NCBI GenBank assembly: GCA_030265395.1
Contig: JARFYF010000074.1
Location: 46,553,344-46,617,343, forward strand
Direction of reading: 5' to 3'
Source of the DNA: Rhina ancylostomus
Taxonomy: Eukaryota
Length of the DNA stretch: 64,000 nucleotides
Part shown: piece after piece, positions 52,301 to 58,300 of the stretch
Numbering within the stretch: the stretch's first letter is position 1
Layout of the letters: every line of letters starts with the position of its first letter
Made by a program: the position numbers

Positions 52301-55300
52301 TCCAATCCAGGCAATGTTCCATGAATCTCTTCTGCACCTTCTCCAAAGCCTTCCTATATTGTGGCAACCAAAACTGTAACAGTACCCCAATGTGGCCTAG
52401 ACAAAATTTTATACATCTCCACCATGACTTCTCAACTTTTATACTCAATACCCTGATCAATGAAGGCAAGGATACTGTACACCTTTACTACCCTATCCAA
52501 TTCTGTTGCCACTTTCAGGGAGCTACAGACTTGTGCCCCAAGATCTCTGTGTACATCAGTGTTCCTAAGGGTCCTGTAATTTTACTCAATATTTTCTCTT
52601 TATTTGACTTCCCAAAATGCATCAGCTAGAAGTTAAAGTGAAACCAGCTTTACAGAAAAGGTCCAAAAATGCTGTTTGAAGAACAGAAGAATTTTTTCCA
52701 TTGTCCAAACCAACATTCATCCTTCAAGCAATTTAAAAGAGAAACCTGCTCATTGATGTACTGTACATGAGACCTTGCTGTGTAACAAACAGCACCACAT
52801 AGTCTGACTCTCCTTGAGGCTGCAAAACAGACAGACAGCTGTTTATTGGTAAAAGAATTTTGTTTAAACAGAAATTGTGGAACTAGTACATCCCACCTGT
52901 TCGGCAGTCCCACAACCAGTGGGCAGTCAACCAGCTTTTGGCTCATAAGTATGTAATGGCGATCATGGGTTAGTGCAGTTTGGCTAGTCCAGTCAGCAGG
53001 AAAGGGAGGCATTTGGTGGAGTTGAACTGATTACACCCACCTCAAGTTTGCAAGAGCACAGGAATGCAGGAAATGGGAGAGAAGGGGAAGACTGAGATGG
53101 TTTCAGCTAGACTGCACATATGTACATTCTATTTTTTGGCTGAATAGAATGGCATTGCTTTAGCTTGAACTAACTGAAAGGGGTTTCCTTGAATTTTTTT
53201 GAATGTTTCATCCACTTAAGTAAACCAAAACCTATGAACAATCTAAATTAGATCAGAGTTGCTTGCATTTCACTGTATGGATTTTTGGAACACTGCGATC
53301 TTTTTCATGGAGCTATTGTTGATTATACTTTGACAACAACCTTACAAGGTCTTCCATTTTCTCATAGTCTACTTATTGCTTTATGATTCCAAGCTTTTGC
53401 TCCAATGCCAAGGCAATGGATAGGGTGAGGAGGCTGACAACAACACAGCAAAGATGAAAATGATCCAAAGAGATTTAGCAGCTGGTGGCAATGGGAGAAT
53501 GAGCAAGATGGAAGAAAAAGCATTCCTTGGTTTATTCCACTTCAATGCAAGGGCTGTGGAGTACTTATTATAAAGCATATAATGGCTTCAATAGATATAA
53601 ATTAACTTTAGAAATGGAGAGGAAGTGGACATTCATTTCAAAGGCAGGTAACATCTGGCAATTATCATAATCATTAATTATGGTAATCACCATTTAAAGT
53701 CAGTACTGATAGTAAATACTTATCAANNNNNNNNNNATGGCACAAAATGAAATATACAATTGGAGTTGCATATTTTCATGCATAAAGTAAATCTGACATT
53801 CGCATCTGTGTTCAAAAGAAATAGACACAGCTACCACAGTGCAATGTCCAATTCTGGTATGTGACTTGAAACACCGTTTTAATAACAACTCTTGTATGTC
53901 TCAATTCATTTCTACTGATTAAAACATGATACTGTGGAAGAATGCTTGTAGGAAGAGCATTAAAAACCACCTGAAAGTGATCAAAATATTGGGTTAGGTG
54001 GTACAATAGATGGGTACAACCAGACTAATTGGATAAATACCAATTATAACTATTGGTTTCTGGCCTCTGACCTGGAATCAATTTGAAATGTTTCAACTCA
54101 GTATTGCTGATCAGGTACTAATTAAGTAATTTAAACCCATAGGAGTTACTGATCACAAGTCCAAATATCACACTATACAATCTTCAGAAGGAGCTTGTAC
54201 GAATGTTAGTCTTAAGTGCAGTCAAAATTCTACCCTTCATCTACCTTGAGCCTTTTTTTCACCTGGGAGTGTTTAACACTGACAGTGGGTCTAAAATTCC
54301 CCTTGCATCACAGAATAAAGGGTTTAATGTTCTTATCATAGCACAGGGATGTTAATGGTTTTACTTGAACAGTGCACCATCAATTGTGAGTTCTTGACAT
54401 TATATCCTGAAACCTCCTGGAAATGAAAAACACTACTTGCAGATTGAACCACCAGCAATGATAGTTCTTAAACATTCAATCACATCACAGCACATTTCTT
54501 CTAGAAACTTAGCTCCTGTTGCAAAGCTGAGCTGAAAACCACACTTTTAGTCCATCAGCAGGGTGAACGATTGGCACTAGCAGCATCTTGGGGAATGTCT
54601 TGGTGGCTAGCTTCCAATGACTGACACTGGTCAACTCAATAGCAAGGACTTTCAGGATAAGTTTTGCAAGCTCTTTGCCAAGGCATCGCCTAACACCTCC
54701 ACCAAAAGGCAGATAATGAAAGCGGATGTTCTTGCCTTCCATTTGATCTTTGGCAAATCTATCCGGATCAAATGTTTCAGGGTCCTGGAATATGGGGGCA
54801 GTATAGTGTGTGTCCTGAATACTGTACAACACACTCCATCCTTTGGGGATCTGGAAACCCTGTCAGAGAAACAAAGCATAGCTTGATTACATATTCATTT
54901 CTCTGTCTCTCAGAAACATTGTCAATGTTTACTTTGTCGAATGGAATCTCTTTTACAAGAGAATAACATTTTAAAACTGATTTTTCATATTATGAAATAA
55001 CTTTGAAATAGAAACCCAGAGTTGCCCTGGTGATTGTGTCCTGAAAACCTAGTCTGTTGGTGTTAGGTGGTAGGTCACCAAGGGCTAATTGAGAGTGGCT
55101 TTGGGTGTAATTGTTAAAAGATAGGACAGATCATGATCATGGTCCACAATTTCTTGGCAGTGGTGAGCTACCTGGGATGTCACTCATCTACTAAGTTCAT
55201 TCACTGGTACCAACTTCCTTGCCAAATCTGTCCAGATGCTCACAAGCAGAGTCTTCTGTGTATGGATTCCACCACAAGCCTCACCCATAGTCATATAAAC

Positions 55301-58300
55301 TGAGTCCAGTATAATTCTGTATCAGATTATTTTCCAGCAACTGGAATTGACTCCTACTCTCAGTTACCACAGATAATGGGAAATAATCCCAAGGACAGTG
55401 AATTCTGATAACTACAGACAATTTATTTTAGTGATGGTGATACATTTCTAATGGGGAGAAGTTTTCCTCTCCAGGCTAGAACCAAGAGTACCAGAGGTAC
55501 CAGCCACCCCGCTGCTTGTACTCACTCACCACCCACACATCAGTTCCCACTGTATGAGGGGTGAGGATGGCAAGCAGCTGGTGTTCGCATATTTTTGGTA
55601 ATAGCTATCAAGGTAGAAATTTCTCTCCCTCTCTGCAAACTGGATACATTTTAAGAAGCAGAAAAAATATCCTTTGGGCACCAGATGTAATTAATATCCT
55701 CTTCAGGGCAGCTCACAAACCCCCACACAAATTAATTTCAAGCCCAACCTCGACTGCTGCCTGTGGGAGGTCAGCACATTCTCTTCACAACTATGTGGGT
55801 TTCCTATCGCATCCCAAGAACAAACTGCTAGGTTAATGTAAATTACCTTTTAGTGCATGCAAGGAGCAAAAGAATCAAAGGGGACGTAATAGGTATGAGT
55901 GAGGGAGATTAAATTGTGGGGTTACAGGGACATAAGGAGAGGGGGAGTGGGACTGCTGGGATTGGGAACCAGCGCTGGGATCAGTGTGTCATTGTAAGTA
56001 AAAGATGAGATCTAACAATCTCACTTACTTAATCTCTGCTAAGAAATTATACATGGTTCTAAATGTTATAAATCCTCTTTAAGTCAAGTTATCCTTCAAT
56101 TCCAGCAAGAGCAACAGCGTCAAATATATTTAAGGCACCTTTAATGTGATGAAACATCTTGAGCTTTTCCAAAGAAGCATTAAATCAGTGCAGTCACAGA
56201 AGGACATCAGGAGGAAGGGAAGTTAACCTTAAAACAAACCAACTCACCGCCAGCTCGAAAGTCCGGAGGGCCACTCGATATCCCCCCGACACAGGTGGGA
56301 GCACCCTCAGTACTTCCTTCACCACACAATCCAGGTACTGCAGGTGGGTGATGTCAGCATGGTGTAAGGTGTCCTCCCTGCCGGTGGTTTCAGGCCAGAA
56401 TCCCCTCGTCTGGAGGTCCACTTTCAGCTTGGCAAAGACGGCTGGATTCTTCAGCAGCTGCAGGATGAGGGAGGTGCAGGCACTGGCTGTGGTGGCGTAG
56501 GCAGCGAACATCAGCTCCACTGCTGCTTCCTGCAGTTAAATAGTGATAACTTCACCATCAGAGGGGAACCTCATTTGATATTGTAACAAATTAATGAGAC
56601 TACATTTGTTGTGAGTTAGCAGGGCCTGCCCTTGGTTCTAGCAGGAATGCGGCAGAAGCTTCTGTTTTGAAATGTTTATGTGAGTTAATATCTGATGCCA
56701 GTAGATGTCACTGGACTGTAGAGTTAAGGAGGTGTCTCAGTGACAATCCCATCACTTAATCGGAAACACATCAGAGAAAAGACCAGGTTTCACTGCACTA
56801 TCCACAAGCCAAAGCACAGCTACTGACTTAGAGTCCTCTTCTGAAAATGGCACCTAGGTGTAATAGATGGTGACGGTTGGGTGGGAGTGTCATTCTTCCA
56901 AGGTTGGGTGGAGATTTTCCTCCCGTGTGTTGTCTGTGCTAGTTCTGACCTGGAAGTGTTCGACCCCGTCACTAGGTGGACAGGTTCATTTCCTAGCTCT
57001 GGAAAGCTGACCTGGACAGGATCAAAATGCTTTAAAAAAAATGTGACTATGAACTCTAGCTCACTGGCTGAGTCATCCTTACCTTCAATTCTTGTGTGCT
57101 CATCTTCATCCTGTGTTCTTTGCTGCTCTTTATCAGGATGCCCAGGGCACTAGAGTTTTCTTCGCAGGGACTGGATTGACGTATATTATCTATGGCTTTT
57201 TCAAAGTATAGGTAGAGCTTGTCCCGAGCGCGAATACCCTGGAATAAGGGAGCAAAGTATGACTTTCCTGCCTATATCTTTGTCTTCCTGGATTCTTGAT
57301 ATAGTTATCCTGGCAAGGAACAAGTGATAGACTGTGATTGTATTGAAACATATAAGATTATGAGGGGCATGACAAGGTAGATGTTGAAATGTCTCCATTA
57401 GTGGGAGAATCTCAAACGAGGGGACACAGTTACAAAGTCGGGGAGCAGTCACTTAAGACTGAGGTGAGTAGGAATTTCTCGCAGAGGGTCATGAATCTTG
57501 AATTCTCTACCCTGGAGGGTTGTGAAGGCTGGAGCATTGGGGGTATTTAAAGAGGAAGTAGATAAATTGGTGAAAGGTCAGGGAATTGAGGGTGATGGGG
57601 GACTGGCACAGAAGAAGAGACGAAGCCTGGGGCAGATCAGCTGTGATCATTGTTGAATGACAGGGCAGGCTTGAAGGGCTGAGTGACCTACTGCTGCTCT
57701 TGTTGACTTATGTTCTTCCGTCACATTCAACAGGTACCTTGTTTTCTACAATAAGGTGGCTCTTGTTGTATTTTAGCTTTCTGTCAATGAAGGCTATGTT
57801 GAAGTTTGAACCCAAGTATCACTCTTTAAGCATTCATTGCTGGAATATTAGAGACAGACAGGACTTTAAAAAAAAGGTATAACTTTACAACAGCATTAAA
57901 AGGGGAAAACGAATCATGTGCTTGTCCAGTGATCTTACGACCTCAGGGTGCATAAAGTTGGCTTTTAACTCTGGTCATCTTTGTAATACAGTAACTACAG
58001 GGGTCAAGTTGTGCAAAGAAAGATCTCATAAACAGCAACTTGGCCTGTTTTAGTGATCTGATAGGACAGCAGGAGGCCCATCTCCCCATTCTGCTGATGT
58101 CCTTTGGAATGGTGTCAACAGATCTTTTATCCGAGTTATCAGGCAGGGTATCAGTTTAACTCCAAAAATTCAGTGCCTAGGACAGAGCAAATCTTCCCCA
58201 GTGCTGTGTTAAAGTTGACCTAGTTATTATTCAAATCCCTGAAGAGCAAGTCGAAACCATGATATCCTGACTCTAAAATAACTGTGAACTCCCTCAAAGT

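What the first reader, a model, noticed from the sequence alone, without database searches (positions are those of the whole stretch)
54509..57238. Divergent B/C-clade CYP26 lying tail-to-tail with matrin-3-like: candidate extra CYP26 ohnolog absent from mammals
Seen: three intact exons with canonical splice sites and all P450 catalytic motifs. The I-to-K-helix exon is undivided, as recalled for 6-exon CYP26B1/C1 and unlike 7-exon CYP26A1. The protein is a mosaic: B1-like ([31 protein letters not shown]), C1-like (EAAVEL, VVKEVLR.LPPVSGGYR, VPIVHP) and unique (YSIQDTH, FELAG, short C-tail). Known from human: CYP26C1 is followed by CYP26A1, and 2p13 has ZNF638(+), DYSF(+), CYP26B1(-), ZNF638 being a matrin-3 paralog. 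Here the order is matrin-3-like(+), CYP26(-), with no ferlin or CYP26A1 between them. Inference: this is the paralogous block from vertebrate genome duplication, retaining an additional retinoic-acid-degrading enzyme.
Basis: partly seen in the sequence, partly recalled or inferred. Interest (0 to 1): 0.75.

Follow-up and report, generated by a model that had tools for sequence, protein, structure and literature searches.

The report
Known extra shark/ray CYP26 gene (CYP26B2)
These are the last three exons of a fourth retinoic-acid-degrading P450 gene that cartilaginous fishes keep and bony vertebrates lack; it is already annotated and was named CYP26B2 in 2017, but it appears to be older than that paper assumed.

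Summary
Three intact, phase-0, AG/GT-bounded minus-strand exons (57238-57083, 56529-56248, 54859-54509) encode the C-terminal 262 residues of a CYP26-type P450. They lie tail-to-tail, 8.2 kb from a matrin-3-type gene (5909-46347, +). The 5' half of the CYP26 gene is not in the window.

The exons are 90%, 100% and 97% identical to the Pristis pectinata protein "cytochrome P450 26B1-like". Proteins of this kind were found in 13 chondrichthyan species. The same genomes also carry a true CYP26B1, and at least one carries a CYP26C1-like gene.

The paralogue is not new. Carvalho et al. 2017 (PMC5247814) named it CYP26B2 and called it a chondrichthyan-specific CYP26B1 duplicate.

My trees disagree with that origin:
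- Gnathostome B1 (cartilaginous plus bony) is a clade that excludes B2 (99/96).
- Forcing B2 together with chondrichthyan B1 is rejected (AU p 0.008 and 0.020).

Together with the matrin-3-type neighbour, this favours an ancient duplicate, probably from whole-genome duplication, that bony vertebrates lost. Paralogon-scale synteny and enzyme activity were not tested.

The parts
57083..57238 (-). CYP26B2 (NCBI 'CYP26B1-like') exon A, third from last coding exon. 52 aa, phase 0 at both ends. Corresponds to residues 233-284 of the Pristis pectinata orthologue P0006.
   Evidence: Searches give the AG acceptor and GTAAGG donor. tblastn; 90% identity to P0006 over 52 columns; as its own row it falls with B2_Pristis+B2_Mobula (98*). 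No Pfam match.
56248..56529 (-). CYP26B2 exon B. 94 aa covering the I helix (FAAYATT), K helix ExxR (KEVLR) and PPVSGGYR. Corresponds to residues 285-378 of P0006.
   Evidence: AG acceptor, GTGAGT donor. Pfam p450, E 2.6e-13; 100% identity to P0006; 28 of 29 columns invariant in B1+C1 are kept.
54509..54859 (-). CYP26B2 last coding exon C. 116 aa plus TAA, with the FDPDRF and [10 protein letters not shown] (haem-thiolate cysteine) motifs. Corresponds to residues 379-494 of P0006.
   Evidence: Pfam p450, E 5.3e-20; 97% identity to P0006; 38 of 39 invariant columns are kept; best solved relative is CYP120 (2ve3), E 5.8e-23.
57239..64000 (-). Intron upstream of exon A. It runs to the window end and contains one run of N. 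The exons for roughly residues 1-232 are not found here.
   Evidence: tblastn with 8 N-terminal queries at E up to 20 gave only noise apart from the exon A edge; no CYP26-like ORF.
46348..54508 (.). 8,161 bp between the two stop codons, holding the 3' UTRs and intergenic DNA of the tail-to-tail pair. No further CYP26 exons.
   Evidence: several AATAAA/ATTAAA sites on each strand; the ORF at 52653-53030 has no Pfam match.
5909..46347 (+). Coding span of the matrin-3-type neighbour (clade M1). About 15 tblastn-mapped coding exons, from the ATG at 5909 to the TGA at 46345-46347. One exon is cut by a run of N.
   Evidence: first exon, 348 aa, 100% identical by BLASTP to Pristis pectinata 'matrin-3-like isoform X2' P0198; exon map, 58-100% per segment; clade M1 100*, far from ZNF638.

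Best explanation
**What it is.** The region is the 3' half (last three coding exons, residues 233-494 of about 494) of the cartilaginous-fish gene that NCBI annotates as "cytochrome P450 26B1-like" and that Carvalho et al. 2017 called CYP26B2. The copy comes from a batoid very close to Pristis pectinata.

**What it does (shown and inferred).**
- Shown: it encodes an intact haem-thiolate P450 of the CYP26 family. The oxygen-activating I helix, the ExxR and PERF-type motifs, the cysteine ligand loop and the PPVSGGYR substrate-site strand are all conserved.
- Inferred from family membership only: it hydroxylates retinoic acid, clearing it as CYP26A1, B1 and C1 do.

**Origin (inferred).** It is a fourth gnathostome CYP26 lineage, not a recent copy of B1. 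It split from B1 (or from the B1/C1 stem) before cartilaginous and bony vertebrates diverged. It sits beside a matrin-3-type gene in the same tail-to-tail sense as recalled for ZNF638 and CYP26B1 in human. It was then lost in bony vertebrates. The likeliest source is the early vertebrate whole-genome duplications.
For: **Identity of the gene.**
- The three exons were searched and placed separately. They are 90%, 100% and 97% identical to P0006, and all three fall with B2_Pristis+B2_Mobula at 98*.
- Proteins of this kind were found in 13 chondrichthyan species, including Callorhinchus.

**Intactness.**
- No stops, and canonical splice sites.
- 71 of 74 columns that are invariant in 30 B1+C1 proteins are kept.
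- Pfam p450 matches exons B and C.

**Separate paralogue.**
- Careful ML tree of 53 full-length rows: B2 99/100*, gnathostome B1 99/96* (chondrichthyan B1 100/96*, bony B1 100/100*), C1 including Hemiscyllium 100/99*.
- B2 and B1 lie on contigs of different length in 3 of 3 species where both lengths are listed.

**Ancient origin.**
- Holding B2 with chondrichthyan B1 costs 16.94 lnL, AU p 0.00785.
- In the gnathostome-only set of 44 rows, B1 is a clade at 97/92* and the AU p is 0.0197.
- Site patterns: 3 columns support (B1c,B1o)|(B2,C1), and 0 support either alternative.

**Neighbour.**
- It is matrin-3-type: E 1e-65 to tetrapod MATR3, against 1e-5 to ZNF638. It is separated from ZNF638 by a branch of 1.88.
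- CYP26B1-like and matrin-3(-like) proteins share a contig length in 8 of 9 species where both are listed. The exception is the fragmented S. torazame assembly.

**Absence from bony vertebrates.** 17 of 336 retrieved proteins have a B2 best hit at 89% identity or more, and all 17 are chondrichthyan.

**Literature.**
- Chondrichthyans have A1, B1, B2 and C1 (PMC5247814).
- Catshark cyp26c1 has been cloned, and a Carcharodon cyp26c1 is predicted (PMC10492535, passages).
- The CTNNA1, CTNNA2 and CTNNA3 regions are suggested to be 2R paralogues (PMC3933685, passages).
Against: - B2 has a long stem (0.37) and evolves faster than B1: Pristis-Rhincodon identity is 70.8% for B2 against 88.2% for B1. 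Long-branch effects could therefore push a lineage-specific duplicate out of B1.
- The tree built on exon C columns alone puts B2 beside 4 of 7 chondrichthyan B1 rows (SH-aLRT 85), with chondrichthyan B1 not monophyletic there.
- The sister of B2 is unresolved. B2+B1 gets 75/90 and 91/83. B2+C1 is not rejected (p 0.072). B1+C1 with B2 outside is not rejected (p 0.279).
- Only one chondrichthyan C1 and two A1 proteins (one a fused model) were in the trees.
- The constraint I tested comes from the 2017 paper, but I ran it after seeing a quick tree.
- The block argument uses one neighbour plus human map positions recalled from memory. No flanking genes beyond the pair were seen.
- Which matrin clade (M1 or M2) is the MATR3 orthologue is unresolved.
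- Retinoic-acid hydroxylase activity, expression and RA inducibility were not tested. No DR5 or DR2 RARE consensus lies in the window, though the promoter is outside it.
Confidence: 0.68

Rival explanations
1. Chondrichthyan-specific duplicate of CYP26B1 (the reading of Carvalho et al. 2017). B1 was copied in the cartilaginous-fish stem, the copy landed next to a matrin-3 gene and evolved fast, and its position outside B1 is a long-branch artefact.
For: - PMC5247814 calls B1/B2 "chondrichthyan-specific CYP26B1 duplicates".
- B2 is found only in chondrichthyans.
- B2 has a long stem and a faster rate.
- The exon-C-only tree places B2 beside 4 of 7 chondrichthyan B1 rows, SH-aLRT 85.
- Overall identity is highest to B1: 57% to B1, 52-54% to C1.
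Against: - AU tests reject B2 plus chondrichthyan B1 as a clade: p 0.00785 and 0.0197.
- Gnathostome B1 is starred in both careful trees.
- B1 and B2 lie on contigs of different length in 3 of 3 species, so they are not tandem.
- The neighbour is matrin-3-type, not ZNF638-type, so a recent segmental copy of the B1 block is excluded.
Confidence: 0.24
2. It is simply the cartilaginous-fish CYP26C1 orthologue, misnamed "B1-like".
For: Some motifs match C1 (EAAVEL, VVKEVLR). B2+C1 is not rejected by the AU test (p 0.072).
Against: - Hemiscyllium has both a C1-like protein (P0194), which sits at the base of the C1 clade (100/99*), and a B2 protein (P0017), on contigs of different length.
- C1 is reported in catshark, Carcharodon and Callorhinchus.
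- No CYP26A1-type exons lie within the 54.5 kb downstream, although C1 and A1 are reported as a tandem pair in gnathostomes (PMC5247814). That adjacency is also echoed by the fused C1-A1 gene models.
Confidence: 0.03
3. A decaying or non-functional copy, i.e. a pseudogene in this species.
For: Only the 3' half is visible. Exon A differs from the Pristis protein at 5 of 52 residues. No expression data are available.
Against: - Three open exons with canonical splice sites.
- 71 of 74 B1+C1-invariant columns are kept, including the haem cysteine loop.
- The clade is retained in 13 species spanning holocephalans, sharks and rays.
Confidence: 0.04

Closest known systems
CYP26B2 of Callorhinchus milii and Leucoraja erinacea (Carvalho et al. 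2017, PMC5247814), equal to NCBI 'cytochrome P450 26B1-like' of chondrichthyans
   Same: Same gene lineage. The window exons fall inside the clade that holds the Callorhinchus (P0022) and Leucoraja (P0020) 'B1-like' proteins. I equate that clade with the paper's CYP26B2. This is inferred from species and description, because the paper's accession table is a supplement I could not open.
   Different: This is a copy from another species, close to Pristis pectinata. My trees place the lineage outside gnathostome B1, not as a chondrichthyan-only duplicate.
CYP26B1 (retinoic acid 4-hydroxylase)
   Same: Closest characterised paralogue. The Pristis B2 protein is 57.3% identical to B1 of the same species and 57.6% to Latimeria B1. 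The I-helix AA(Y/F)ATT, PPVSGGYR and haem loop are shared. B2+B1 is the preferred but unstarred grouping.
   Different: It is not inside the B1 clade. It lies on a different chromosome-scale contig. The seven sequences displayed show the Cys-x-Cys stretch in B1 and C1 but not in B2. The C-terminus is shorter (494 aa against 508-511 aa). The neighbour is matrin-3-type, rather than the DYSF/ZNF638/EXOC6B neighbours recalled for human.
CYP26C1
   Same: Same B/C branch of the family. Exon B is as close to C1 (55-57%) as to B1 (55-59%).
   Different: It is outside the C1 clade (100/99*). It is 51.7% identical to the Hemiscyllium C1-like protein. No adjacent CYP26A1.
CYP120A1 of Synechocystis (PDB 2ve3/2ve4)
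   Same: Nearest solved structure by sequence to exon C (E 5.8e-23). I recall that it was crystallised with retinoic acid; that comes from memory, not from a call.
   Different: It is a bacterial soluble P450 and only a distant relative. Exon B found no solved relative at E 1e-5. No CYP26 structure appeared in the PDB copy searched.

Membership tests
Cytochrome P450 (PF00067) | Haem-binding loop FxxGxRxCxG with the cysteine ligand | tested here: met
   [10 protein letters not shown] in exon C. Pfam p450 E 5.3e-20.
Cytochrome P450 (PF00067) | K-helix ExxR and the PERF-type motif | tested here: met
   KEVLR in exon B. FDPDRF in exon C. These columns are invariant in B1+C1 and kept here.
Cytochrome P450 (PF00067) | Complete fold including the N-terminal anchor and B'-G helices | not testable with these tools
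   Residues 1-232 are not encoded in the window. The exons were not joined, so no model of the window's own protein was folded.
CYP26 family (retinoic acid hydroxylases) | At least 40% identity to family members (P450 nomenclature rule, recalled) and placement inside the CYP26 clade | tested here: met
   The Pristis orthologue is 41.8% identical to A1, 57.6% to B1 and 53.5% to C1. It lies inside vertebrate B/C, with A1 and invertebrate CYP26 as outgroups.
CYP26 family (retinoic acid hydroxylases) | Oxidises retinoic acid | not testable with these tools
   Inferred from conservation only: 71 of 74 B1+C1-invariant columns are kept.
CYP26B1 orthologues | Nests within the gnathostome CYP26B1 clade | tested here: not met
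   The B1 clade (99/96*, and 97/92* in the smaller set) excludes B2. AU rejects B2 plus chondrichthyan B1 (p 0.00785 and 0.0197). The exon-C-only tree disagrees weakly.
CYP26C1 orthologues | Nests within the C1 clade and lies in tandem with CYP26A1 | tested here: not met
   The C1 clade (100/99*) includes the Hemiscyllium C1-like protein and excludes B2. There is no second CYP26 in the window.
Chondrichthyan CYP26B2 / 'CYP26B1-like' clade | Groups with the Callorhinchus, Leucoraja and shark 'B1-like' proteins | tested here: met
   The clade is supported at 99/100*. Each window exon falls inside it.
2R ohnologue of CYP26B1/C1 | The duplication node predates the cartilaginous/bony split | tested here: met
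   Support is moderate, and long-branch caveats apply.
2R ohnologue of CYP26B1/C1 | Lies in a block whose genes are paralogues of those around B1 and C1/A1 | tested here: inconclusive
   One neighbour only: a matrin-3-type gene. MATR3, ZNF638 and RBM20 are called paralogues in PMC12795506. The positions of ZNF638 near CYP26B1 and of MATR3 at 5q31 are recalled, not tested. No eukaryote genome collection was available here.

The most novel reading that the evidence does not exclude
CYP26B2 is the surviving fourth ohnologue of the CYP26 B/C gene from the two early vertebrate genome duplications. On this reading the matrin-family(+)/CYP26(-) tail-to-tail pair is a relic of a pre-duplication linkage, still seen as ZNF638...CYP26B1 in human (recalled). 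The MATR3 paralogon lost its CYP26 in the bony-vertebrate stem, so the ancestral jawed vertebrate controlled retinoic acid with four CYP26 enzymes rather than three.
Probability: 0.6. Interest if true: 0.45.

Novelty: already known. Interest (0 to 1): 0.3.

Why it matters
Retinoic-acid clearance by CYP26 enzymes sets the boundaries of hindbrain, limb/fin, germ-cell and skeletal patterning. Textbook accounts give jawed vertebrates three CYP26 genes. A fourth gene that is old and conserved across holocephalans, sharks and rays has three consequences:
- The ancestral toolkit was larger, and bony vertebrates lost a member.
- RA experiments in skate and catshark that consider only cyp26a1, b1 and c1 may miss a degrading enzyme.
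- The gene gives a clean case for asking what was subfunctionalised or lost.

The gene itself is not a discovery, since it is annotated and named. What the analysis adds is a dated origin and a syntenic anchor.

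Tried and rejected
- **5' exons.** tblastn with 8 N-terminal queries at E up to 20 found none in the window.
- **Second CYP26 or CYP26A1 in the window.** None found with full-length B2, B1 and C1 queries.
- **Rfam at gathering thresholds.** 0 matches over the whole window, so no snoRNA marker exists for the matrin host gene.
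- **RARE consensus.** DR5 and DR2 each gave 0 matches, against 0.28 and 0.19 expected by chance.
- **Other ORFs.** Pfam on 10 other long ORFs of the window gave 0 families.
- **Solved structures.** Exon B found nothing in the PDB at E 1e-5.
- **Site-pattern count.** Only 3 informative columns at the 80% threshold and 0 at 100%, too few to weigh much.
- **Cyclostome affinity of B2.** Adding a second lamprey fragment left the cyclostome sequences at the base of B/C. None grouped with B2 in the full-length quick tree. The exon-B-only tree put the hagfish next to B2 at 81, which is weak.
- **Odd high scorers.** The Acipenser sinensis and Phrynosoma proteins proved to be fused C1-A1 gene models, not bony-fish B2.
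- **Literature.**
  - "CYP26B2" occurs in 4 papers. Judging by their titles, only PMC5247814 is on CYP26 evolution; I did not open the other three.
  - cyp26 + ohnolog + cartilaginous gave 6 papers; judging by titles and abstract starts, none is about a fourth CYP26. I opened only PMC3769385, whose passages do not mention one.
  - cyp26 + shark + four + retinoic acid + paralog gave 12 papers; by title none is about this gene. I read passages of two of them, PMC10492535 and 10.1101/644062, and neither describes it.
  - A search for the exon structure of the three CYP26 genes gave nothing usable.
- **Not attempted.**
All searches, alignments and trees used each exon on its own, or the database's own full-length orthologues.
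  - No structure was predicted and no complex job was sent.

Full report
**What is in the sequence.**
- 57238-57083 (52 aa).
- 56529-56248 (94 aa).
- 54859-54512 plus TAA ending at 54509 (116 aa).

Each exon follows a pyrimidine tract and AG. The first two are followed by GTAAGG and GTGAGT. All three lengths are multiples of three, so the introns are phase 0. Pfam p450 matches the second and third exons (E 2.6e-13 and 5.3e-20) but not the first. Every search, alignment and tree used each exon alone, or used full-length proteins as the databases hold them.

**Whose gene it is.**
- Exon C searched alone gave 882 proteins at E ≤ 1e-5 among 1193 candidates, with the best 120 listed. The top true match was "cytochrome P450 26B1-like" of Pristis pectinata (P0006, 494 aa, 97%). 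It was followed by like-named proteins at 78-91% from Mobula, Heptranchias, Pristiophorus, Heterodontus, Mustelus, two Scyliorhinus species, Carcharodon, Hemiscyllium, Rhincodon, Leucoraja and Callorhinchus. True CYP26B1 came only at 72% or less and CYP26C1 at 69% or less.
- Exon B searched alone gave 357 of 544 candidates and was 100% identical to P0006.
- tblastn of P0006 on the window hits only residues 232-494. The 5' half is not in the window.
- The small differences from the Pristis proteins are 47/52, 94/94 and 112/116 for the CYP26 exons, and 347/348 for the neighbour's first exon. They suggest a very close relative or another haplotype. The window is not human.

**The neighbour.** The 348-aa first coding exon at 5909-6952 (+) is 100% identical by BLASTP to Pristis pectinata "matrin-3-like isoform X2" (P0198). 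That protein is recorded on a contig of the same length (120,465,868) as P0006.
- Tetrapod and coelacanth MATR3 follow at about 52% identity (E about 1e-65). ZNF638 appears only at E 1e-5, and RBM20 does not appear.
- The gene maps from 5909 to TGA 46345-46347. The pair is therefore tail-to-tail, with 8,161 bp between the stops.
- A quick tree of 32 rows gives three starred clades in a trichotomy: the window's clade M1 (8 elasmobranchs), a second chondrichthyan clade M2 (12 rows, with Callorhinchus), and sarcopterygian MATR3. All are far from ZNF638, across a branch of 1.88.
- CYP26B1-like and matrin-3(-like) proteins share a contig length in 8 of 9 species where both lengths are listed. The exception is the fragmented S. 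torazame assembly.

**Is it B1, C1 or something else?** I chose 53 full-length rows by name from the proteins returned. I left out fragments, isoforms, most fused models, teleost entries with conflicting B1/C1 names and all unnamed records. The rows were:
- 12 B2.
- 7 chondrichthyan B1.
- 10 bony-vertebrate B1.
- 1 chondrichthyan C1 and 12 bony C1.
- 3 cyclostome.
- 2 A1.
- 6 invertebrate.

The careful tree (511 columns, LG+C20+F+G4) gives B2 99/100*, gnathostome B1 99/96* (chondrichthyan 100/96*, bony 100/100*) and C1 with the Hemiscyllium C1-like protein at its base 100/99*.

| Hypothesis tested | Result |
|---|---|
| B2 sister to B1 (53 rows) | preferred, 75/90, not starred |
| B2 sister to B1 (44 gnathostome rows) | preferred, 91/83, not starred |
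| B2 with chondrichthyan B1 only (53 rows) | rejected, ΔlnL 16.94, AU p 0.00785 |
| B2 with chondrichthyan B1 only (44 rows) | rejected, ΔlnL 10.32, AU p 0.0197; B1 clade 97/92* |
| B2 with C1 | not rejected, p 0.072 |
| B1 with C1, B2 outside | not rejected, p 0.279 |

Each window exon, entered as its own row, falls with Pristis and Mobula B2 (98*).

Results against the ancient-origin reading:
- B2 has a long stem (0.37) and evolves faster than B1.
- A tree on exon C columns alone puts B2 beside 4 of 7 chondrichthyan B1 rows (SH-aLRT 85). The exon B tree puts the hagfish beside it (81).

**The "mosaic" claim.** Mean identity of the window exons:

| Exon | Chondrichthyan B1 | Bony B1 | C1 | Cyclostome |
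|---|---|---|---|---|
| A | 44.5 | 48.8 | 35-39 | not compared |
| B | 58.7 | 55.5 | 55.3-57.4 | 62.8 |
| C | 67.4 | 64.9 | 57-59 | not compared |

The protein is B-leaning, with one equidistant exon. That is what an old paralogue keeping ancestral states would show, and there is no sign of recombination.

**Function.** 71 of 74 columns invariant across 30 B1+C1 proteins are kept in the window exons. These include the I-helix, ExxR, PPVSGGYR, FDPDRF and the cysteine loop. The nearest solved structure to exon C is CYP120 (2ve3/2ve4, E 5.8e-23). Exon B finds none. Retinoic-acid hydroxylation is therefore inferred from family membership and conservation, not shown.

**What is in print.**
- Carvalho et al. 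[quoted passage not shown] They also report the general presence of A1, B1 and C1 in chondrichthyans.
- The catshark study PMC10492535 (passages) cloned cyp26a1, b1 and c1 and cites a Carcharodon cyp26c1. It does not mention the fourth gene.
- "CYP26B2" occurs in 4 papers. Judging by their titles, only the 2017 paper is on CYP26 evolution; I did not open the other three.
- Searches combining cyp26 with ohnolog and cartilaginous (6 papers) and with shark, four and paralog (12 papers) turned up no paper that, by its title or abstract start, treats the gene as a genome-duplication relic. I read passages of three of them (PMC3769385, PMC10492535, 10.1101/644062).
- PMC12795506 (passages) calls MATR3, ZNF638 and RBM20 paralogues.
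- PMC3933685 (passages) reports suggestive 2R paralogy between the human CTNNA1, CTNNA2 and CTNNA3 regions.
- The positions of MATR3, ZNF638, CYP26B1 and CYP26A1/C1 relative to those regions are my recollection of the human map and were not tested.

**Verdict.** The gene is a known, annotated and once-named paralogue (CYP26B2), so it is not a new find. Of 336 retrieved proteins, 17 had a B2 best hit at 89% identity or more, and all 17 are chondrichthyan. That it is specifically a whole-genome-duplication ohnologue remains an inference from one neighbour and a recalled map.

Noticed in passing
window 5909-46347 (+), and hits: Cartilaginous fishes carry two matrin-3 paralogues whose proteins share a contig length in Pristis, Heterodontus, Mustelus and Narcine. 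The window's gene is clade M1 (8 elasmobranchs among the hits, no Callorhinchus). Clade M2 includes Callorhinchus 'matrin-3'. M1, M2 and sarcopterygian MATR3 form an unresolved trichotomy.
   Followed up: partly
window 56248-56529 (-), exon B columns of the alignment: In the seven sequences displayed, B1 and C1 share a Cys-x-Cys stretch (NGCxCE-like) between the I and K helices. The two B2 proteins shown and the window exon lack it, and Callorhinchus B2 has a 5-residue gap there.
   Followed up: no
window 57083-57238 (-) compared with 5909-6952 (+): Relative to the Pristis pectinata proteins, CYP26 exon A differs at 5 of 52 residues while the matrin first exon differs at 1 of 348. This segment of the P450 evolves fast. 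No coding DNA of other species was available for dN/dS.
   Followed up: no
window, 13 runs of N, e.g. 31693-31792 and 59356-59455: One run cuts a matrin-3-like coding exon: tblastn matches stop at 31690 and resume at 31795. Another lies in the intron upstream of CYP26 exon A. They were left as they are.
   Followed up: no
database proteins P0004, P0018, P0124 (Acipenser sinensis) and P0005 (Phrynosoma): P0018 and P0005 are long gene models with a CYP26C1-like part followed by a CYP26A1-like part, i.e. fusions of the tandem C1-A1 pair. That explains their inflated scores. For P0004 and P0124 the rows shown match only C1, and the make-up of their remaining parts was not displayed.
   Followed up: yes
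window 31040-31177 and 34243-34389 (+): The two RRM-encoding exons of the matrin-3-like gene cross-match each other at 40-45% identity in tblastn, as expected for its two RRM domains.
   Followed up: no
whole window: No Rfam family reaches its gathering score. No DR5 or DR2 retinoic-acid response element consensus is present. Ten other long ORFs have no Pfam match.
   Followed up: yes
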